A DNA stretch of 8,625 nt from a virus (lineage: Duplodnaviria > Heunggongvirae > Uroviricota > Caudoviricetes), in the IMG/VR virus record IMGVR_UViG_2778261676_000003, positions 1 to 8,625 of that record; one strand, given 5' to 3'. Below, in pieces: positions 1 to 7,467 of this stretch (positions within the stretch are counted from its first letter, which is position 1; every line of letters starts with the position of its first letter). Below the pieces are notes generated by a model, which ran no database searches, was not told the DNA's origin, and was given only the letters and a program-made list of their open reading frames with translations. A program made the translations under genes and the position numbers.

Positions 1-201
1 TTACCCATTGGCGCGGCTTAAGAGCTTATTTTTGAATTCACAGTGGTCACGATATAACCATCTTGCTCGCCCGTGGATAACTTTGGCTTTTGGCAGGTCG
101 CCGGACTTAATCCGGTCGTAGATGAAGGTTTTACCGAAGCCAGTATCGGCCATGATGAATTTCAAATCAACCAGTGAATCAGGTTGTAGTTCGTGTTGCA
201 T
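1..201 (-). CDS. torI: Excisionase / recombination directionality factor of the AlpA-Xis winged-helix family (TorI-like, 66 aa)
   Basis: Complete 66-aa ORF (ATG at 199-201, TAA at 1-3). The translation MQHELQPDSLVDLKFIMADTGFGKTFIYDRIKSGDLPKAKVIHGRARWLYRDHCEFKNKLLSRANG has the AlpA/Xis helix-turn-helix signature and matches my recollection of E. coli K-12 TorI (the KplE1 excisionase). The gene symbol is from memory and should be confirmed by BLAST. Confidence 0.85.
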   Translation of the reverse strand: MQHELQPDSLVDLKFIMADTGFGKTFIYDRIKSGDLPKAKVIHGRARWLYRDHCEFKNKLLSRANG

Positions 202-220
202 GAGTGCTATCTCCGAATAG

Positions 221-236
221 GGAATCGAACCTGCAA
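221..236 (-). other. tRNA T-arm-like 16-mer (minus-strand TTGCAGGTTCGATTCC); candidate att-core relic or recombinase-site remnant
   Basis: Plus strand 221-236 ggaatcgaacctgcaa is the reverse complement of TTGCAGGTTCGATTCC, which contains the canonical tRNA T-loop GGTTCGATTCC. As I recall the sequence it is identical to the T-arm segment of E. coli tRNA-Arg(CCU) argW. The flanking bases do not complete a tRNA, as there is no matching acceptor stem or CCA end. Confidence 0.4.
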
Positions 237-309: not shown

Positions 310-510
310 TTATTCGATGCGTACTCCTGGTATTTCGCCTTTTGATATTGCTAAGTCATAAATTTGCGCGGCACTATATCCATCTCGCATCCATGAATCT
401 AAGGCGCGAACAGCCTCGCTACGCTTTTTATCTTCTCTCTCATTTTTGATATCAACGAGGACATCAACGCAATTAAGGCAAATGTGGATTTTGTCCTTAC
501 ATTCGATCAT
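310..510 (-). CDS. Hypothetical small protein (66 aa), possibly the C-terminal remnant of a zinc-ribbon protein
   Basis: ATG-initiated ORF with a weak ribosome-binding site. The in-frame stretch just upstream of the ATG encodes CSLCGG, and the ORF contains CLNC, so a CxxC...CxxC zinc ribbon appears split by the start position. No confident family assignment. Confidence 0.3.
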   Translation of the reverse strand: MIECKDKIHICLNCVDVLVDIKNEREDKKRSEAVRALDSWMRDGYSAAQIYDLAISKGEIPGVRIE

Positions 511-766: not shown

Positions 767-1045
767 TCATTTTTCCTCTTTTGGTTTATGAATCTGAATG
801 GTCATGCCGCTTTGAGTGGTGACTACAATGACAGAACCAGGCTGAAGACTGTTAAGATTGAATGCTTCGTAAAACGAATCCAAGGCCAGCGCTTTTTTAT
901 TCTTTCGGTTCCACCAACGCCATCCCTTGCTACAGGCTACACTGACAATCCACTGCCCACTCCTGTAAGCCATATAAAACCAGATGAGCAAAACCTGAAG
1001 GAATGCTATCCAGTCAATAATCGTATATTTCGCGAAGGAGTCCAT
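767..1045 (-). CDS. Hypothetical small membrane protein (about 92 aa; one predicted transmembrane helix followed by a basic W/R/K-rich segment)
   Basis: Strong Shine-Dalgarno AGGAGGTG 5 nt upstream of the ATG at 1043-1045. The track places the start at the GTG at 1046-1048. The stop of the upstream ORF overlaps this start (TGATG), indicating translational coupling. Hydrophobic stretch TIIDWIAFLQVLLIWFYMAY, then KGWRWWNRKNKK. Confidence 0.6.
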   Translation of the reverse strand: MDSFAKYTIIDWIAFLQVLLIWFYMAYRSGQWIVSVACSKGWRWWNRKNKKALALDSFYEAFNLNSLQPGSVIVVTTQSGMTIQIHKPKEEK

Positions 1046-1260
1046 CACTTCACCTCCTGCTGCGGTGCTGCTGGCATTTCACGCCAGTGCGTAACTGAGT
1101 GCGGATCCGGATATTCGGTGCCATCATCCCAGCGATTGCCATTCCACATTGCAGACCACATCTCACCGTCTTCATACATGACCATTACCGGAATTAACTT
1201 ATCGCGCCAGAAGCGCAGCAGGCTATCAGATTTGCAGAGCGTGAAGGAGTTCCTCTGCAC
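1045..1260 (-). CDS. Hypothetical small Trp-rich, mildly acidic protein (up to 71 aa; start uncertain)
   Basis: ORF ends with TGA at 1045-1047, overlapping the start of the downstream membrane-protein gene. The track start at 1260 is a GTG with a poor ribosome-binding site. Internal ATGs (codons 26 and 28) would give a 44-46 aa product. Confidence 0.45.
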   Translation of the reverse strand: MQRNSFTLCKSDSLLRFWRDKLIPVMVMYEDGEMWSAMWNGNRWDDGTEYPDPHSVTHWREMPAAPQQEVK

Positions 1261-1299
1261 ACCACAGACCTGTTACAACCAACTTCCCGCGTCGGAAAA

Positions 1300-2463
1300 A
1301 TGGCGCAGACTACAGCAGAAAATATCCCTCTGGCTGGCACAAGCGGAATGAGAGCAACGCAACAGGAAGCGAGAAGCCAGTTGGTGCAGAGATTTGCTGA
1401 TAAATTTGGTGAGTATGATCCAGCGGTTGTTATTGACAGCCTTAAAGCGAAAACATCAGGAATTCGTCGTGCCGCCGGTAATCGACTGGAGCAGGTTCAG
1501 AATGCTATGGCTGGAGTAAACATTCAGCCTGTGCGAGCAATTCAGCAGATTGATACTGAGATATCTAACCTGCAGAAGCTTGGTAAGGTCGCTGATAACG
1601 AGACGATTTCAAAACTTCAATCCTATCGTGATGAGCTTGTTCGCAATGCTGGTCCTGATGGTCCGGTAAATCTGGATTTGAAGCAATTAAGCGATCTGCG
1701 CAGCCAGTTCAGAATGGATGTGAAGGGTGAGCGACCAGTGTTACCAAACCGTTCCGATGCTGCCATTCAGCGCGTTTACAAGGCAATGACTGACGATATC
1801 AATGGTGCCATTGGTCAGAATCTTGGCAACGATACTCTCCGTAAATATCAGCAGGCCAATGCCGTCTACGCTGACGAAGCGGCGAAACTAAAGAATACCA
1901 GGCTGAAGAATGTTCTCATGAAAGGCGACCTGACGCCGGAAGTTGTCAACAACATGCTATTCAGCAAGAACAAATCGGAAATTAAGACTCTGTATAACTC
2001 AGTTGGTCGTGTTGGCAGGGCGCAAATGCGCAATGGCATCATTGGAAAGGCAATGGAGAAATCTGGCGGATCCCCTGACCAGTTCCTTCGACAGCTTAAC
2101 ATCCTGCAAAACCAGACTGGCATCACATTTAAAGGTCAGGATGCTGCTTATCTGAAAGGATTAAAAAACTACCTGCAATCCACGCAGCAGGCTGCAAAAG
2201 CGGCAGTAACAACACCCACAGGGCAGCAAACTATTCCGTTCATTATAGGGTATGGGACGGCAATGAACCCGGCGACAACTGGCGCAGCAGTAAGCTACGG
2301 ACTTCTTACTCGCGCCTATGAGAGCGAGCCATTCAGAAATGCAATGCTCCGAATGGCAAACACCCCACGCGGATCAACAGCGTTTGAGAAAGCCATGCAG
2401 CAGGCACAAAAGGCCATTAACGCCCTGACTCAGGGGGCTAAGTCTGATGCGTTGTCAGAATAG
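1300..2463 (+). CDS. Hypothetical phage protein, 387 aa, Q/A/N-rich with predicted coiled regions; possibly a DNA-injection (ejection) protein-like remnant by synteny
   Basis: Long ORF with ATG at 1300 and TAG at 2461-2463, and a weak ribosome-binding site (GGA). It sits immediately upstream of mnt and the tailspike, the position gene 16 occupies in P22-like phages, and its composition resembles ejection proteins. The functional call is by position and composition only. Confidence 0.7.
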   Translation: MAQTTAENIPLAGTSGMRATQQEARSQLVQRFADKFGEYDPAVVIDSLKAKTSGIRRAAGNRLEQVQNAMAGVNIQPVRAIQQIDTEISNLQKLGKVADNETISKLQSYRDELVRNAGPDGPVNLDLKQLSDLRSQFRMDVKGERPVLPNRSDAAIQRVYKAMTDDINGAIGQNLGNDTLRKYQQANAVYADEAAKLKNTRLKNVLMKGDLTPEVVNNMLFSKNKSEIKTLYNSVGRVGRAQMRNGIIGKAMEKSGGSPDQFLRQLNILQNQTGITFKGQDAAYLKGLKNYLQSTQQAAKAAVTTPTGQQTIPFIIGYGTAMNPATTGAAVSYGLLTRAYESEPFRNAMLRMANTPRGSTAFEKAMQQAQKAINALTQGAKSDALSE

Positions 2464-2552
2464 CTTCGCAAACACCAGGAACGTGCAAAAACCAAATATG
2501 TAGAACGCAATATTCAGCATATCTCTTTGCATATATCCTCCGTAACTGATAG

Positions 2553-2846
2553 TTAGCTGCTGTCTTTTTTATATAGCTCTTTGAGCGTATCAAAGACAAT
2601 TTTCTTAACCATATCAGATTGTTGTTCTGCCATACGCTCTGCATCGTCAATGTAAACTGATGCAGAGTTTTGTTTATCCAATGATTCCTCAATCGCTGCA
2701 ATTATCTCTGAGTTCAGCGACCTGTTATTCATCTTCGCACGCTGCTTAATTTTCGCGTGGAGTTCATGCGGAAGTCTCAAGTGAAACTGCGCCTCGTCGT
2801 ATTTGCTGTACATCCTTGATGCCTCACCAGTTGGGTGGAATGGCAT
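2553..2846 (-). CDS. mnt: Mnt-like ribbon-helix-helix (Arc/MetJ superfamily) transcriptional repressor
   Basis: Translation contains QFHLRLPHELHAKIKQRAKMNNRSLNSEIIAAIEESL (RHH motif) and the C-terminus DAERMAEQQSDMVKKIVFDTLKELYKKDSS, closely resembling the P22 Mnt C-terminus (...DAERLADEQSELVKKMVFDTLKDLYKK..) as I recall it. AGGT ribosome-binding site 4 nt before the ATG at 2844-2846. An alternative ATG at 2811-2813 would give 86 aa. Confidence 0.85.
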   Translation of the reverse strand: MPFHPTGEASRMYSKYDEAQFHLRLPHELHAKIKQRAKMNNRSLNSEIIAAIEESLDKQNSASVYIDDAERMAEQQSDMVKKIVFDTLKELYKKDSS

Positions 2847-2934
2847 CGTAACCTACTGGATAAATACTCAATAGTACCATTTCTGTATGCAATCACATCA
2901 TGGTTGCATCATATCATTCGTCTGGAGCAATGAA
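2847..2934. promoter_or_regulatory. Divergent intergenic region between mnt and the tailspike gene; contains an inverted repeat ATGCAA-N11-TTGCAT (2887-2909) as a candidate operator
   Basis: 88-bp AT-rich spacer between divergently oriented start codons, with 6-bp inverted-repeat arms. Promoter hexamers are not confidently assignable by eye. Confidence 0.35.
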
Positions 2935-5091
2935 ATGTCAGATATCACCGCAAATGTTGTGGTAAGCATGCCTTCGCAACTCTTCACTATGGCTCGTTCT
3001 TTTAAAGCCGTAGCCAATGGCAAAATTTATATCGGTAAAATTGACACTGACCCGGTAAATCCTGAAAACCAGATTCAGGTTTATGTGGAGAACGAAGACG
3101 GCTCTCACGTTCCTGTTTCGCAACCAATCATCATTAACGCTGCTGGTTACCCGGTATATAACGGACAGATTGCCAAGTTCGTAACTGTGCAAGGCCATTC
3201 TATGGCTGTTTATGATGCATACGGTGTGCAGCAGTTCTATTTTCCTAATGTGCTGAAGTATGACCCGGATCAGTTTTCTGCAGAATGGCTTGCCAAGATG
3301 TCTGCGCCTGATTCTTATGCATTATTTGGTACATTCTCATCAATAGCAGATCTACGAGCATTTACTGCATACTCATCAGTTAAGGAAAATGGAAGAGTCT
3401 ATGTTGATTCTTATCACCTTGGAACTGGTTATGGCGGAGGATATTTCCGCTGGAATTCAACCAGCACTGATACTGATGACGGAGGCTATACCATTAACCC
3501 AACTGGCAATACTGGAACAGGACGCTGGAAACGTGAATTCGTATCTGCATATTCAGCTCGCACAGTTTCGCCTTTAGAGTTCGGTGCTAAGATGAATGAC
3601 AGCACCTTCGATAGTGCCCCAGCGATCAATGCCGCCATTTCATACCTCAATCCTTACTTTGATGCCTCATATGACTCACATCAAGGCGGGGATGTAACCA
3701 TGCCTGCCGGGATGTTTTACATCAATGACACAATATACGGTTCTCCAAATGTAAGATTGATCGGTACTGGGGGAACGACCGGATTTAGATATTCACGTGC
3801 TGGGTGCTGCATCATCATATCCATGTCAACAATGGATGCAAACAAGGTACAATATGACACTGCTCCTTATAAAATCGACGGTACTGGTAGATATACTGAC
3901 ACCTCAACAGTGGATAATGGGCTGACAATAAGCCACGGCTATTACGGACAGTATTTAGAAAACTTGGTTTTTTTGGGAAATCCAGATCAAAAAGCCAACA
4001 TTCGTATCTGGCGAGTGCCAACGTCAAAGTTAATTGGTGTGGGAACATATGGCTGTCTAACCAACTTCTGGATTAGCGGTTCTTGGGGTACGGCAGTTGA
4101 AAATTGCTTTGCTCAAGGAGCAAAATACGCAACATTTTTGACTCCTCACACCACAGCACTAAACATTGTAGGTGGGTACTTCACTGGAAACACATCGCAA
4201 ACATGGGCAATGGGTTCTGCTCAGTGGTTCCACAGGACTGCCTCTGATTCAAATCGTCCAAATATTGCTTATGTAACAACATTCCTTTATGCGCATGATT
4301 CAGTTGATATCAATATGCATGGAGTTACTTGGGAGGGTTACTATAGGGATTTTGCTTTATTCTACTGCGGTAATGTTAACGTTTTTGGTGGCTATAACGA
4401 AAACTCTGTAATCCCTAGCTCCGAGTATGGTCACACAGTCTGGGTGCACTGTGTAGCCTCTAGGATTAATGCTTATGGAGTATTTCTAAATCATGGGTAT
4501 AAGGATTTCGCCGTTCAGTCAGGAAATTTAATTGACCCATCTACCGGGGCGTTAATCCCTTCTGAAATATCTAACATAAATCTTTATGACCCAAGAGTGG
4601 ACTCGAAGTTTTTACAGATAAACAAAGATCTTGGATACGGCGAATATAGTATATTCATTAGCTGCAAGCATCCTATAACATCAGATCTTGCTGTCACACT
4701 TGCCTCATTAAGAAACTACTCGGCCCAATTTGATGGCCTGCTTGATCAATACACTATGCGGGTTCCCTCAATAACTCCAAATGGAACAACAAGCTTTAGC
4801 TTCCAAATCAGTAATATATCTAGTAATGGTGAGTATAACGTGCGCTTTTTAGCCAGAAACTCTGGCGGCACTTTACATCAGGATATTAGATTTAAAATGC
4901 TAATTGGAAGCGTGGTGTCAGTGACAGGGGTGGAAGAGCGTTCGAAAGTAGGTACTGCAAGCTTGGGCTCACCTTCGGTTAGCTTTGCTTCTGGCACGGT
5001 AACGATAACCTTTAATGGGAATTCAGGACTATATTCTTTATACCGTGTGCAATGCTTGCCTGTTAACAATCAAGTTATTTACAGTTTCTGA
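2935..5091 (+). CDS. Phage tailspike protein: P22-type N-terminal head-binding domain fused to a divergent beta-helix-like receptor-binding/depolymerase domain (718 aa)
   Basis: N-terminus [59 protein letters not shown]...[11 protein letters not shown] closely parallels the P22 gp9 head-binding domain ([43 protein letters not shown]...). GGAG ribosome-binding site 7 nt upstream of the ATG at 2935; the track's upstream start at 2887 adds 16 residues not seen in homologs. Downstream [23 protein letters not shown] resembles the entry motif of pectate-lyase-like beta-helix depolymerases. Stop TGA at 5089-5091. Confidence 0.9.
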
Positions 5092-5097
5092 ATTTAT

Positions 5098-5128
5098 CCC
5101 CCCCCCGTACCCGCGGTGGGGGGGGGGG
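5098..5128. repeat. Homopolymeric inverted repeat C9-GTACCCGCGGT-G11 between convergent stop codons
   Basis: Read directly from the sequence: C-run 5098-5106, G-run 5118-5128, with a central CCGCGG palindrome. It starts 6 nt after the tailspike stop and ends 3 nt before the acetyltransferase stop (TGATCA at 5129-5134). Confidence 0.8.
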
Positions 5129-5131
5129 TGA

Positions 5132-7024
5132 TCACAAAAGAGGGTTTTTATGATTTTTCAAGTAAATCTTAGCCAATTCTCTTGCGCCATAAACATTTAG
5201 ATGTGCATGATCCATGTAAATAAACCTTCCATTTAAATAAACCTTGCAGCCTGAATCCGTGCAAAGGATATCATTTGGGTCTATATAAACTGGTTCTTTG
5301 TAGGAATTCATGATTTCATCTAATGAAATGTTAACATTTACTTTTTTAGCAAGTTCACTGTGGTCATCATTTCCAGATGCAATGTCAGATTTAAACTTGT
5401 TGAATTCCTTATAATCCATACCATTTGGTCTAAGTATTACAATTAGTTTAGCACCATGTGATGATAGGTATTCAAGAGTGGATAAGATGTCGTAACCATC
5501 TGCCTTGAAGTAACTGTCATCATTACCCCAACTAGCCCCTACAATCACGTTTTTATAACCCCTAGCCAAATCAATCCTTTTTTTGTTATAGGATAGCTTT
5601 TCCTCGCTACGGTATTTTGAAACCTTTGTGCCCTCTCTATATGGATTTATATTCATAATTGGTGGGAGCGAGCTTGAAACAGTAACAGCGACTGATTTTC
5701 CTGCATCCTTAGCCAAATAATCAATGAACTCTATGTATGACCCTGCTATCGAATCACCGATCATTATGGTCTCTGGCTTTTTTGTTACATCTCCTATGAT
5801 GCATAAACCATCTTTAGTTAGTGAATAGCTATCATAGCACTGAGAGTATTTGACCTCAGACCTGTTCTCATTTGCAAAATCGTTATTGTTAAATCTATCT
5901 GGGAATCCTTTCTCTGAGGAAGCCCAGAGGAAAATAAGTGAGAAAATTACAAGAGGAAGAATTAATAGAAGCAAGAGCGAAGGCAAGAATCCCATCTTAA
6001 ACTTGCGCACCTTAGTTTCAAAAGCATAAAAGTTGAATATAGAGAGAGCGATTGTTAGTATCAATACCACAAATTTAACAAAAATAGTGAACTCAACACC
6101 CCTATAATTAAGTAGGGCAATTATAGGCCAATGCCACAAATACATTGAATAAGAGATTTTGCCAATGAATATAACTGGTTTTAAACTTAAAACTCTGTTA
6201 ACAATTGGTGTAAAGGATTGATTGGCTCCAGCGATTATTATTAATGCCGCACCCACGCAAGGTATCAAAGCATTATAGCCAGGGAACAAGCTTTCTTTCT
6301 CTATTGAGAAAGAGCTAAATGCAATTAATGTTATACCTAAAATAGAGAAGGCGTTTGATACTTTTGTGGATTCAAATTTGTAATTACTTAGTAATATTGA
6401 AATAACGCCACCAATCATCAACTCAAAAGCCCTGAATGGGAGCATGTAGTATGCAAGCGATGTATATATAAGTGCGCCGTATTGCGAAACAGCAAACAAA
6501 GCAATTATTATCAAAACAAAGATCTGAAGCTCATACTTTCTAAATTTCAATATCACAAATGAAATTATCAAAGGTGCAATTAGATAGTACTGTTCCTCGA
6601 CGGATAAAGACCACGTGTGAAGAAGAGGGATCTGATCGGCGTTCCCTGAGAAATAGCTTGTAGTGTTGAAGTAAAAAAGGAAATTACTGATAGAAAGAAG
6701 AGTGAATATTGCGCTTTTGATCATGTATATAAACTCATCAGGCATCAATATGAAAATTGATGCGACTAATGTTGTAAATAACACGACCAATAAAGATGGC
6801 AAAATTCTCTTGATTCTTCTGTTGTAAAACCCTGAGTATGTGAAACTTCCGTTAGAAATTTCCTTTCTTATTATGGAGGTTATTAGATACCCAGAGATTA
6901 CAAAGAAAATATCTACCCCGATAAATCCGCCCGTAATGAACTGGCTACCAACATGATAGACTATTACCAATAGAACGGCTACTGCACGCAAGCCGTCAAT
7001 GTCTGGTCTATATCTAATCTCCAT
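5132..7024 (-). CDS. Integral-membrane O-acetyltransferase, acyltransferase-3 family with a C-terminal SGNH domain (OafA/Oac-like; likely O-antigen acetylation / serotype conversion), 630 aa
   Basis: N-terminal motif RPDIDGLRAVAVLLVIVYH and multiple hydrophobic segments typical of the acyltransferase-3 fold. C-terminal GDS (IGDSIA) and DHAH blocks typical of SGNH esterase-like domains. ATG at 7022-7024 with a GGGA ribosome-binding site. The gene looks AT-rich by eye. Confidence 0.9.
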   Translation of the reverse strand: MEIRYRPDIDGLRAVAVLLVIVYHVGSQFITGGFIGVDIFFVISGYLITSIIRKEISNGSFTYSGFYNRRIKRILPSLLVVLFTTLVASIFILMPDEFIYMIKSAIFTLLSISNFLFYFNTTSYFSGNADQIPLLHTWSLSVEEQYYLIAPLIISFVILKFRKYELQIFVLIIIALFAVSQYGALIYTSLAYYMLPFRAFELMIGGVISILLSNYKFESTKVSNAFSILGITLIAFSSFSIEKESLFPGYNALIPCVGAALIIIAGANQSFTPIVNRVLSLKPVIFIGKISYSMYLWHWPIIALLNYRGVEFTIFVKFVVLILTIALSIFNFYAFETKVRKFKMGFLPSLLLLLILPLVIFSLIFLWASSEKGFPDRFNNNDFANENRSEVKYSQCYDSYSLTKDGLCIIGDVTKKPETIMIGDSIAGSYIEFIDYLAKDAGKSVAVTVSSSLPPIMNINPYREGTKVSKYRSEEKLSYNKKRIDLARGYKNVIVGASWGNDDSYFKADGYDILSTLEYLSSHGAKLIVILRPNGMDYKEFNKFKSDIASGNDDHSELAKKVNVNISLDEIMNSYKEPVYIDPNDILCTDSGCKVYLNGRFIYMDHAHLNVYGARELAKIYLKNHKNPLL

Positions 7025-7223
7025 AAGGAATCCCTTTTGCTTACCCGTTTAAAATTAATATTTCAGACGCAAAGAAGTATCTTCTTCACATGATGTTGAT
7101 TGCAAACAGTGATCAAGCCATTTCATTACGCAATTCGTCGCTCTTATGCAGTTACAGTCATCATTTTCTACCTACAAAACTAGCGAAGTTGCCAAGTGCC
7201 TGACCTGTGTGAAACGCATATAT

Positions 7224-7251
7224 GCAAACAGCAAACAGCAAACAGCAAACA
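7224..7251. repeat. Tandem heptanucleotide repeat (GCAAACA)x4
   Basis: Four perfect head-to-tail copies read directly (7224-7230, 7231-7237, 7238-7244, 7245-7251), followed by a degenerate CAGCACAG. It lies in the 443-bp intergenic region about 200 bp upstream of the acetyltransferase start and about 215 bp downstream of the integrase stop. Confidence 0.8.
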
Positions 7252-7467
7252 CAGCACAGTGTAATAATGTGTTAACTATGCCAATCGAGGTGTACTTTGC
7301 AAATAGCTTTAACATTTCTTCTATCAGCTAATAATCAAAGGCATGAAGTCTATCATCCAAATCTTAAACGATCGATACTTGCTGTGGTTGATAAGACAAA
7401 ACTGAGACAAACAAAGCTTTGCGCTGGATTGCAAGGCTTTGTGCTCTTCGATAGTGGTTAAGGTGGA

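What the first reader, a model, noticed from the sequence alone, without database searches (positions are those of the whole stretch)
2935..5091. Chimeric tailspike: conserved P22-type head-binding domain joined to a divergent receptor-binding domain
The first roughly 115 residues are near-collinear with the P22 gp9 head-binding domain. The remainder diverges into a beta-helix-like depolymerase domain that I cannot assign to a known specificity. This is the classic module-swap point of podovirus tailspikes, and the receptor-binding part looks more AT-rich than the N-terminal part, suggesting separate acquisition. A tailspike retained in a decayed prophage with no head genes may have been kept as a free O-antigen-modifying enzyme or be usable by helper phages.
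Basis: partly seen in the sequence, partly recalled or inferred. Interest (0 to 1): 0.5.

Follow-up and report, generated by a model that had tools for sequence, protein, structure and literature searches.

The report
Modular P22-type tailspike in cryptic prophage
This is an intact phage tailspike gene, with a standard P22-type virion-attachment domain joined to an uncharacterised sugar-cutting beta-helix, left behind with an O-antigen acetylase gene in an 8.9-kb dead prophage at the argW tRNA gene of E. coli; it is an ordinary example of a well-known module swap, and only its target sugar is unknown.

Summary

The body belongs to a small, compact family (~36 clusters) that also occurs behind T7-type and TSP1/gp66-type adaptors, so the module swap is real. 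The AT-richness claim is weak: 42.5% versus 43.8% GC, clearer only at third codon positions.

The window is a KplE1-type argW remnant (torI to intS). gp16 is cut at codon 226 and fused to a DUF551 fragment. The tailspike and its acyltransferase form a 4.4-kb cassette that differs by one substitution from a copy in an intact P22-like prophage elsewhere, so decay or transfer was recent.

Nothing supports a domesticated free enzyme: there is no signal peptide, no lysis genes, and pseudogene fragments are retained alongside. Verdict: a new member of a known kind, of low to moderate interest.

The parts
1..201 (-). torI (excisionase / recombination directionality factor of the KplE1-HK620-Sf6 argW module)
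   Evidence: 97-98% nt identity to annotated torI in L001 and L002. It is the last gene before the att core next to dsdC in L004.
310..510 (-). small early-left ORF (phrog_3680, unknown function)
   Evidence: PHROG hit, E 2e-43
767..1048 (-). DUF4752 early-left gene
   Evidence: Pfam PF15944, E 2.5e-36
1045..1199 (-). 3' fragment of a DUF551 gene, truncated by the deletion
   Evidence: Pfam PF04448 matches only the C-terminal part. The full-length L002 homologue is 165 aa.
1199..1201 (.). deletion junction that removed roughly 30 kb of a P22-like genome (immunity, replication, lysis, head and tail-hub genes)
   Evidence: tblastn of L002 gp16 gives aa 226-645 = window 1201-2460 at 99.3%. DNA identity starts at ~1200.
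1201..2463 (+). C-terminal fragment of the gp16-type DNA ejection/transfer protein (pseudogene)
   Evidence: phrog_770 positions 257-666 of 668; precomputed PF26808 Phage_P22_gp16; missing the first 225 codons
2553..2846 (-). Mnt-type Arc/ribbon-helix-helix repressor gene (the likely start at 2813 gives 86 aa)
   Evidence: Pfam Arc PF03869, E 3e-14, and Repressor_Mnt PF11423, E 3e-14; called as 86 aa in L004
2887..2909 (.). imperfect inverted repeat ATGCAATCA-N5-TGGTTGCAT between mnt and the tailspike RBS; a candidate operator (inference only)
   Evidence: sequence
2935..3273 (+). tailspike aa 1-113: P22-type head-binding domain
   Evidence: PF09008, E 1.2e-66, full profile; PDB hits to Sf6 gp14 and P22 gp9; 92% and 74% identity
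3274..3306 (+). tailspike aa 114-124: linker and module junction
   Evidence: Identity to Sf6 falls to 2/16. DNA identity to L001 and L002 ends at 3273-3276.
3307..3546 (+). tailspike aa 125-204: neck domain shared with WceF, CBA120 TSPs, Fri1 gp49 and K2-2 TSP; the first part of the mobile receptor-binding unit
   Evidence: PDB sequence and profile hits 6tgf, 6c72, 8iq5, 5w6h. Conservation across adaptor types starts at aa ~128-136. WceF neck description in PMC7949094.
3547..4662 (+). tailspike aa 205-576: cap helix and right-handed parallel beta-helix (predicted depolymerase body). Family-invariant E467 and E489 on consecutive rungs are candidate catalytic residues.
4663..5091 (+). tailspike aa 577-718 plus stop: helix and C-terminal beta-sandwich domain
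   Evidence: AF2 secondary structure and pLDDT >90. No homologues outside the family except two weak hits.
5098..5128 (.). C9...G10 hairpin between the convergent tailspike and acyltransferase genes; probable bidirectional terminator
   Evidence: tract lengths vary between window, L003 and L005
5132..7024 (-). AT3-SGNH acyltransferase (predicted O-antigen acetylase, serotype-conversion gene). It is co-inherited with the tailspike as one cassette (window ~3037-7392).
   Evidence: Pfam PF01757, E 5e-32, plus PF19040, E 2e-29; phrog_6705 O-antigen acetylase, E 5e-154, full length; cassette near-identity with L003
7224..7251 (.). (GCAAACA)x4 heptamer array in the acyltransferase upstream region
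   Evidence: TRF; a one-unit difference in L003
7468..8625 (-). intS, the argW-specific tyrosine integrase
   Evidence: Pfam arm-binding, central and catalytic domains; annotated intS in L001 and L002; tRNA-Arg(CCU) lies 160 nt beyond it in L004

Best explanation
The gene is the tailspike (gene 9 / gene 14 equivalent) of a P22-like temperate podovirus. That phage integrated at argW with the KplE1/HK620/Sf6-type IntS-TorI module and then lost about 30 kb by one internal deletion.

Predicted domains and roles:
- aa 1-113 dock a trimer onto the tail hub of a P22-type virion.
- aa ~125-204 form a neck domain.
[quoted passage not shown] This most likely binds and cleaves a surface polysaccharide of the E. 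coli host, most probably its O-antigen, as an endoglycosidase.
- aa ~577-718 form a C-terminal beta-sandwich.

The adjacent, convergently transcribed AT3-SGNH acyltransferase is the matching lysogenic-conversion gene. It would acetylate the same polysaccharide so that phages carrying this spike no longer adsorb.

Tailspike and acetylase travel together as a ~4.4-kb cassette, exchanged between P22-like backbones by recombination. One arm lies in the conserved 5' end of the head-binding region.

In this window the tailspike is a stranded, still intact passenger of a recently decayed prophage, not a domesticated host gene.

Shown: domain content, fold, module boundaries, deletion junction, cassette identity, genomic site.
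Inferred: trimer, enzymatic activity, substrate, role of the acetylase, lack of expression or function in the remnant.
For: - Head-binding domain: PF09008 over the full profile, and ungapped identity to the P22 and Sf6 tailspikes.
- Modularity: the same body at 48-90% identity occurs behind PF09008, PF18668 and PF03906 adaptors. Carriers include a T7-like 40-kb contig and a tape-measure-bearing siphovirus-like contig.
- Family size: ~36 clusters in 5.8e9 proteins, collapsing to one 50% cluster. Remote relatives are PF12708 beta-helices.
- Site and decay: L004 is 100% identical to the window. It shows dsdC | att core - torI ... intS - argW | yfdC, an 8.9-kb island. gp16 is cut at codon 226.
- Cassette: window 3037-7392 differs from an intact P22-like prophage at ybhB/bio (L003, which has coat, gp4, gp10, gp26, gp7, gp20 and gp16) by one substitution, plus homopolymer and heptamer length changes. 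There are 15 differences clustered in 2938-3036.
- Acetylase: AT3+SGNH domains and the full-length O-antigen acetylase PHROG.
- General precedent: RBD exchange across Lederbergvirus, Kayfunavirus, Kagunavirus and other genera (PMC10408124), and the shared argW recombination module (PMC3509656).
Against: - No enzymatic or binding data exist, and no characterised homologue of the beta-helix body, so the substrate and even the hydrolase/lyase distinction are unproven.
- The window protein itself does not reach any Pfam threshold beyond PF09008 in the local library.
- The trimer was not modelled.
- The host serogroup is unknown.
- The neck domain also occurs in exopolysaccharide-specific enzymes (WceF). 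A relative, the Salmonella phage SEN22 tailspike, is labelled colanic-acid degrading in its record. A capsule or EPS target is therefore possible.
- Expression in the remnant was not assessed. An intact mnt gene and an intact ORF leave open that the tailspike is made under some condition.
Confidence: 0.8

Rival explanations
1. Domesticated free enzyme: the host keeps the tailspike, WceF-like, to trim or remodel its own O-antigen or exopolysaccharide.
For: - The ORF is intact in a remnant that lost nearly everything else.
- Head + neck + beta-helix + sandwich is the same architecture as the bacterial enzyme WceF. The sequence hit to 6tgf over aa 7-290 has E 4.8e-21.
- Other argW remnants also keep a tailspike.
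Against: - The N-terminus aligns from residue 1 with virion tailspikes and has no Tat or Sec signal, by direct reading. WceF has a Tat signal and sits in an EPS biosynthesis cluster.
- The island has no holin or lysin to release the protein.
- The flanking gp16' and DUF551' fragments are retained as well, so retention needs no selection.
- There is one substitution in 4.3 kb relative to an intact prophage, so the remnant is too young for intactness to be informative.
- The other remnants were found by searching with this window or tailspike, which is an ascertainment bias. K-12 KplE1 has no tailspike.
Confidence: 0.04
2. Resource for other phages. Either the resident tailspike is assembled in trans onto superinfecting P22-like virions (phenotypic mixing), or the remnant serves as a recombination donor of the tailspike-acetylase cassette. 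The whole 8.9-kb island may also still be excisable through IntS/TorI.
For: - The HBD is 92-96% identical to those of HK620, Sf6 and other E. coli P22-like phages, so it should fit their tail hubs.
- The same cassette, nearly identical, sits in three different backbones: the window, L003 and L005. Breakpoints lie in the HBD 5' end and at ~7392, showing recent recombinational transfer.
- intS, torI and both att cores are present. KplE1 with the same module is excisable (PMC3509656, PMC2951348).
Against: - The direction of transfer is unknown. The remnant may simply descend from a phage that already had the cassette.
- No late promoter or antiterminator remains upstream, and no sigma-70-like + strand promoter was found in 2847-2934.
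- A superinfecting phage that adsorbs to this host already has a suitable spike.
- Nothing here tests trans-assembly.
Confidence: 0.12
3. The receptor-binding part is not an O-antigen endoglycosidase. It could be a lyase, or a capsule/colanic-acid-type depolymerase, or a non-catalytic binding module.
For: - The neck domain is shared with EPS and capsule depolymerases.
- The SEN22 relative is annotated as colanic-acid degrading.
- The best structural neighbour, TSP1, has a non-classical putative site, adjacent Glu456/Glu483 (PMC3966878).
Against: - Characterised P22-like tailspikes with this HBD are mostly O-antigen endoglycosidases (P22, Sf6, HK620; general knowledge and PMC3966878 introduction).
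- The linked gene is an O-antigen-acetylase-type AT3-SGNH protein.
- Related spikes sit next to gtrABC O-antigen glucosylation genes (L008).
- Two family-invariant glutamates, E467 and E489, on consecutive rungs fit a glycosidase.
Confidence: 0.2

Closest known systems
Tailspikes of P22-like podoviruses (P22 gp9, Sf6 gp14, HK620 gp9, CUS-3)
   Same: - N-terminal head-binding domain: 74% identical to P22, 92% to Sf6, ~95% to HK620.
- Abrupt loss of similarity at residue ~114.
- Beta-helix receptor-binding part.
- Gene position: gp16 - (immI) - tailspike - conversion gene - int.
   Different: - The beta-helix body has no detectable sequence similarity to any of them. It is 11-13% identical in structural alignments.
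- It has an extra neck domain that P22, Sf6 and HK620 lack.
- Specificity is unknown.
- The gene lies in a remnant without virion genes.
CBA120 TSP1 (ORF210; PDB 4oj5)
   Same: - Neck-type domain preceding the helix.
- A pair of conserved glutamates on neighbouring rungs. TSP1 has Glu456/Glu483 (PMC3966878); here E467/E489 are invariant.
   Different: - Only 11% identity.
- Different N-terminal adaptor (myovirus branched-complex type).
Pantoea stewartii WceF (PDB 6tgf)
   Same: Same four-part architecture: P22-like head domain, CBA120-like neck, beta-helix, C-terminal sandwich. The sequence hit over aa 7-290 has E 4.8e-21.
   Different: WceF is a chromosomal, Tat-exported enzyme in the stewartan gene cluster. 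The protein here has no signal peptide and sits in a prophage remnant. The beta-helix bodies are unrelated in sequence.
KplE1 / CPS-53 cryptic prophage of E. coli K-12 and the argW recombination module (IntS, TorI, attL/attR)
   Same: Same insertion site (argW, between dsdC and yfdC), the same intS and torI, and the same 16-nt att core. It is a defective remnant with a conversion gene next to intS (PMC3509656).
   Different: Different internal content. K-12 carries gtrABS and no tailspike. This island carries an AT3-SGNH acetylase, an intact tailspike, mnt and a gp16 fragment.
Cross-genus exchange of tailspike receptor-binding domains in E. coli phages (Pas et al. 2023, PMC10408124)
   Same: The same receptor-binding body occurs behind different anchors in P22-like, T7-like and siphovirus-like genomes.
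   Different: This RBD subtype is absent from 50,697 deposited phage genomes. It has no serogroup assignment.

Membership tests
P22-type tailspike (Head_binding PF09008 + beta-helix RBD) | N-terminal head-binding domain matching PF09008 over its full length | tested here: met
   E 1.2e-66, 222 bits against a cut-off of 24, aa 1-113 = profile positions 1-113/113; PDB hits to the P22 and Sf6 head-binding domains
P22-type tailspike (Head_binding PF09008 + beta-helix RBD) | C-terminal right-handed parallel beta-helix receptor-binding/depolymerase part | tested here: met
   [not shown]
P22-type tailspike (Head_binding PF09008 + beta-helix RBD) | Encoded with the partner tail-hub and head genes (gp4, gp10, gp26, coat) of a P22-like virion | tested here: not met
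   These genes are absent from the window because they were deleted. A protein with only 2 residue differences (S2T, V9I) lies in an intact P22-like prophage, L003, that has these genes.
P22-type tailspike (Head_binding PF09008 + beta-helix RBD) | SDS-resistant homotrimer with endoglycosidase activity on host polysaccharide | not testable with these tools
   Needs purified protein. Only monomer models could be made.
Pectate-lyase-like beta-helix family PF12708 (Pect-lyase_RHGA_epim) | Pfam gathering-threshold match | tested here: inconclusive
   The window protein has no PF12708 hit at E <= 0.01. Some family members carry weak precomputed PF12708 hits. All ten remote HMM relatives tested are PF12708.
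Pfam PF27114 Phage_tail_beta | Match to the family model | tested here: met
   A precomputed hit is listed for this exact protein and all relatives. The model is not in the local Pfam copy, so it was not re-run here.
KplE1/HK620/Sf6-type argW recombination module | intS + torI + att core repeats flanking the island at the 3' end of argW | tested here: met
   intS domains; torI 97-98% nt identical to annotated torI; ATGGTGTCCCCTGCAG at both ends; tRNA-Arg(CCU) adjacent
AT3-SGNH O-antigen acetyltransferases (OafA/Oac-like conversion enzymes) | Fused Acyl_transf_3 and SGNH domains | tested here: met
   PF01757, E 5e-32, and PF19040, E 2e-29; phrog_6705, full length
AT3-SGNH O-antigen acetyltransferases (OafA/Oac-like conversion enzymes) | O-acetylation of the O-antigen and the resulting phage resistance | not testable with these tools
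   Needs LPS chemistry. The nearest phage homologues are only 29-40% identical.
Domesticated tailspike-like host enzymes (WceF/WcaM type) | Export signal and location in a polysaccharide biosynthesis locus | tested here: not met
   The N-terminus [17 protein letters not shown] aligns with residue 1 of virion tailspikes. It has no twin-arginine or hydrophobic signal (direct reading). The locus is a prophage remnant. WceF has a Tat signal.

The most novel reading that the evidence does not exclude
The 8.9-kb island is more than debris. It could be a still-excisable (IntS/TorI/att intact) mini-element that keeps a Mnt-controlled tailspike and a matching O-antigen acetylase.

It might supply its spike in trans to superinfecting P22-like phages, since the head-binding domain is 92-96% identical to those of HK620 and Sf6. 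Or it might donate the 4.4-kb cassette to them by recombination. Either way it would act as a chromosomal reservoir of host-range determinants.

The near-identical cassette in three different backbones is compatible with this reading but does not require it.
Probability: 0.08. Interest if true: 0.6.

Novelty: new member of a known kind. Interest (0 to 1): 0.25.

Why it matters
- It adds an uncharacterised receptor-binding subtype to the catalogue of E. coli tailspikes. The subtype is absent from about 50,000 deposited phage genomes and from 5,426 complete E. coli genomes, yet it is shared by P22-like, T7-like and siphovirus-like elements.
- If its polysaccharide target were identified, it could be used for serogroup typing or for engineered host ranges, as with other tailspikes.
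- The tight linkage of the spike to an acetylase, moved as one cassette, is a clean natural example of how receptor specificity and the matching superinfection block travel together.
- Nothing here challenges current understanding of tailspike modularity or of cryptic prophages.

Tried and rejected
1. The full-length AlphaFold run with the 30-sequence alignment gave a poor model: pLDDT 62.7, with the HBD and aa 203-289 below 50. The Foldseek results on it are only qualitative. It was replaced by the aa 125-718 model built with 60 sequences.
2. Sequence and profile searches of the PDB with the beta-helix body alone returned only noise, such as antibody light chains at E 0.3-1. No solved relative exists by sequence. 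The equivalence of E467/E489 with TSP1 Glu456/Glu483 could therefore not be tested.
3. Megablast of the RBD plus acetylase against complete E. coli genomes found nothing, so the serogroup could not be read from annotated strains. Cluster names gave no serotype for this spike. Only the 65%-identical relative P0007 has members labelled O74:H39.
4. The promoter scan found no + strand sigma-70-like site upstream of the tailspike. Promoter-like hits in the window are fewer than in shuffles, so expression cannot be argued either way.
5. Rfam found no RNA family in the window.
6. dN/dS on the remnant copy against the intact copy was abandoned, because only one substitution separates them.
7. The idea that recurrent retention of tailspikes in argW remnants shows selection was rejected. 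Those loci (L001, L002, L008) were found by searching with this window or its relatives, which is an ascertainment bias. They also retain pseudogene fragments.
8. The NCBIfam scan gave no named family for the tailspike.
Full report
**What is at the coordinates.** The mechanical ORF runs 2887-5091. The start supported by homology is the ATG at 2935 ([10 protein letters not shown]...), with GGAG 7 nt upstream. This gives a 718-aa protein that is exactly WP_244586425.1, annotated "phage tailspike protein [Escherichia coli]".

**Head-binding domain.** Pfam finds one domain, Head_binding PF09008, covering aa 1-113 against the whole 113-position profile (E 1.2e-66). Against solved structures, the N-terminus aligns without gaps to the P22 tailspike (87/117 identical). 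It aligns to Sf6 gp14 with 104/113 identical in aa 1-113 and then only 2/16 in aa 114-129. DNA identity of 91-93% to two other E. coli argW prophage remnants likewise stops at nt 3273-3276.

**The divergent part.**
- A tblastn search of 50,697 phage records hit 185 records. None covers more than 37% of the protein and none extends past aa ~268. There is therefore no uniform homology to a characterised tailspike.
- Sequence and profile searches of the PDB hit only N-terminal adaptors and a small neck domain (aa ~126-246). The hits are WceF 6tgf, Fri1 gp49 6c72, K2-2 TSP 8iq5 and CBA120 TSP4 5w6h. The helix body alone returns noise.
- A first full-length AlphaFold model was poor (pLDDT 62.7).
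- A second model of aa 125-718 used 60 aligned sequences and is confident (pLDDT 89.4, pTM 0.87). It shows a small beta neck domain (aa ~132-200), a cap helix, about 13 rungs of beta-strands (aa ~250-576), a helix, and a C-terminal beta-sandwich (aa ~620-709).
Both fail, so the reading stands.

**Is it a swapped module?**
- The part from aa ~128 to the C-terminus has about 36 relatives at 40-94% identity among 5.8 billion proteins.
- These relatives carry different N-termini. Some have the P22 head-binding domain (PF09008). Many have the TSP1/gp66-type Tail_spike_N (PF18668). One has a T7 tail-fibre N-terminus (PF03906). Some have almost no adaptor.
- One carrier lies on a 40-kb T7-like contig with ocr and a T7-type terminase. 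Another lies on a tape-measure-bearing siphovirus-like contig. Others are in Yersinia, Pantoea and Mixta genomes.
- An exhaustive HMM search of 1.84 billion 50%-identity representatives collapses the family into a single cluster. Further hits (E 1e-16 to 1e-3) cover only the first ~215-290 positions. All ten of those tested are PF12708 pectate-lyase-like beta-helices.
- The receptor-binding body is therefore a compact, isolated subfamily of the usual depolymerase fold. It is exchanged between phage types in the way described for E. coli phages by Pas et al. (PMC10408124).
- The mobile unit includes the neck domain, which is of the kind seen in CBA120 tailspikes and WceF (PMC7949094).

**Composition.**
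- Whole-sequence GC is 0.438 for the head-binding part and 0.425 for the rest. Of 345-nt blocks within the gene, 31% are at least as GC-rich as the first one.
- At third codon positions the values are 0.443 and 0.368. Only 2.8% of contiguous 115-codon blocks reach that contrast.
- The "more AT-rich" impression is therefore weak. It adds little to the much stronger homology evidence for separate histories.

**Surroundings.**
- The window is identical over all 8,625 nt to a contig of an E. coli assembly (L004).
- That contig shows emrKY-dsdAXC | att core ATGGTGTCCCCTGCAG - torI ... intS - att core within tRNA-Arg(CCU) argW | yfdC-mlaA-fadL. This is the KplE1/CPS-53 site and the IntS/TorI recombination module shared with HK620 and Sf6 (PMC3509656).
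- The island is 8.9 kb.
- Reading from the left, it holds torI, a small PHROG ORF, DUF4752 and a 3' fragment of a DUF551 gene, all on the minus strand.
- At nt ~1200 comes the last 420 codons of a gp16-type DNA-ejection gene. This is codons 226-645, 99.3% identical to the full-length L002 protein.
- Then follow an Mnt-type repressor gene, the tailspike, a convergently oriented AT3-SGNH acyltransferase (a full-length match to the O-antigen acetylase PHROG), and intS.
- No head, tail-hub, lysis, replication or immunity-C genes remain. "Decayed prophage with no head genes" is correct. The decay is a single internal deletion of roughly 30 kb.

**A tailspike-acetylase cassette.**
- A tailspike differing at only two residues lies in an apparently intact P22-like prophage at a different chromosomal site, next to ybhB/bioA. 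That prophage has coat, gp4, gp10, gp26, gp7, gp20 and gp16 genes (L003).
- Between window 3037 and 7392 the two loci differ by one substitution, by length changes in the C9/G10 hairpin, and by one 7-nt repeat unit. There are 15 differences clustered in 2938-3036. Similarity ends near 7392, just downstream of intS.
- A third contig (L005) combines the window's gp16-mnt left side with the L003-type right end.
- The spike and the acetylase therefore move as one ~4.4-kb unit between P22-like backbones. In the latest event the left crossover lay inside the conserved head-binding region, not at the residue-114 junction.
- The cassette is rare. It has no megablast match in 5,426 complete E. coli genomes. 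The protein cluster has 16 member sequences.

**Likely mechanism (inferred).**
- By analogy with P22, Sf6 and HK620, a trimer docks through aa 1-113 onto the tail hub. The beta-helix then binds and cleaves the host surface polysaccharide.
- The substrate is most likely the O-antigen. The linked gene is an O-antigen-acetylase-type enzyme, and a 65%-identical spike in another argW remnant sits next to gtrABC glucosylation genes (L008).
- Two glutamates, E467 and E489, lie 22 residues (one rung) apart in the most conserved block, [27 protein letters not shown]. They are invariant in the family and at least 90% conserved when remote PF12708 relatives are added.
- The best structural neighbour, TSP1, has a proposed pair of adjacent glutamates, Glu456 and Glu483 (PMC3966878).
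- A lyase, or a capsule/EPS target, remains possible (about 0.2).

A WceF-like domesticated enzyme is unlikely, for three reasons.
- WceF is Tat-exported and sits in an EPS gene cluster. This protein begins at residue 1 of the virion domain with no signal sequence, and the island has no lysis genes.
- Useless fragments (gp16', DUF551') are retained beside it.
- One substitution in 4.3 kb relative to an intact prophage means intactness reflects youth, not selection.

Other argW remnants with independent deletion junctions also keep gp16-mnt-tailspike-intS (L001, L002, L008). They were found by searching with this sequence, so they cannot be counted as evidence for selection.

Use by other phages, through trans-assembly or as a recombination donor, is not excluded. 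The head-binding domain is 92-96% identical to those of HK620, Sf6 and relatives, and the cassette has demonstrably moved between backbones. No result here requires this, and no promoter for the stranded gene was identified.

**Verdict.**
- The chimeric-tailspike interpretation is supported and refined.
- The AT-richness argument is weak.
- The domestication and helper-phage ideas are unsupported.
- This is a new, uncharacterised member of a well-known kind, in a well-known kind of cryptic prophage.

Noticed in passing
window 5098-5128: A C9-GTACCCGCGGT-G10 hairpin sits between the convergent stop codons of the tailspike and the acyltransferase. It is probably a bidirectional terminator. The homopolymer tract lengths differ between the window, L003 and L005.
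   Followed up: partly
window 7224-7251: A perfect (GCAAACA)x4 heptamer array lies ~200 nt upstream of the acyltransferase start. L003 differs by exactly one 7-nt unit, so the copy number varies. It could modulate acetylase expression.
   Followed up: no
window 221-236 (L004 7287-7302): The 16-mer GGAATCGAACCTGCAA is identical to an internal segment of the argW tRNA (L004 15867-15882). It lies just upstream of torI and is separate from the att core at the island end. It may be a relic of an older or differently registered attachment site, or part of the phage attP arm.
   Followed up: partly
window 2887-2909: An imperfect inverted repeat, ATGCAATCA-N5-TGGTTGCAT, lies in the 88-nt gap between the Mnt-type repressor gene and the tailspike RBS. 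Arc and ant are absent here, so Mnt may act directly on a promoter facing the tailspike. This was not tested.
   Followed up: no
window 1199-1201: This is the single deletion junction. It fuses a 3' fragment of a DUF551 gene (- strand) to codon 226 of the gp16 ejection-protein gene (+ strand). The listed 387-aa ORF 1300-2463 is only the part of this fragment after the first in-frame ATG.
   Followed up: yes
L001 6001-14709; L002 6001-17785; L008 3330-13235: Other E. coli strains carry argW remnants with different deletion junctions: an IS100 fragment, DUF551|holin, and dsdX'|'gp20. All still keep gp16-mnt-tailspike-(conversion genes)-intS, with different receptor-binding parts and different conversion modules (none, AT3 acetylase, gtrABC). 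This is suggestive of a pattern but confounded by how the loci were found.
   Followed up: partly
L005 (whole contig) compared with window 1333-7445: This third backbone combines the window-type gp16/mnt left side with the L003-type right end. It shows that the region around window 7392, just downstream of intS, is a second recombination boundary of the cassette.
   Followed up: partly
window 5132-7024: The acyltransferase is the most AT-rich gene in the window (GC 0.357). Its nearest homologues in deposited phages are only 29-40% identical (Enterobacter phage Tyrion, E. coli phage PAS61, Pseudomonas phages). It is as uncharacterised as the tailspike body.
   Followed up: partly
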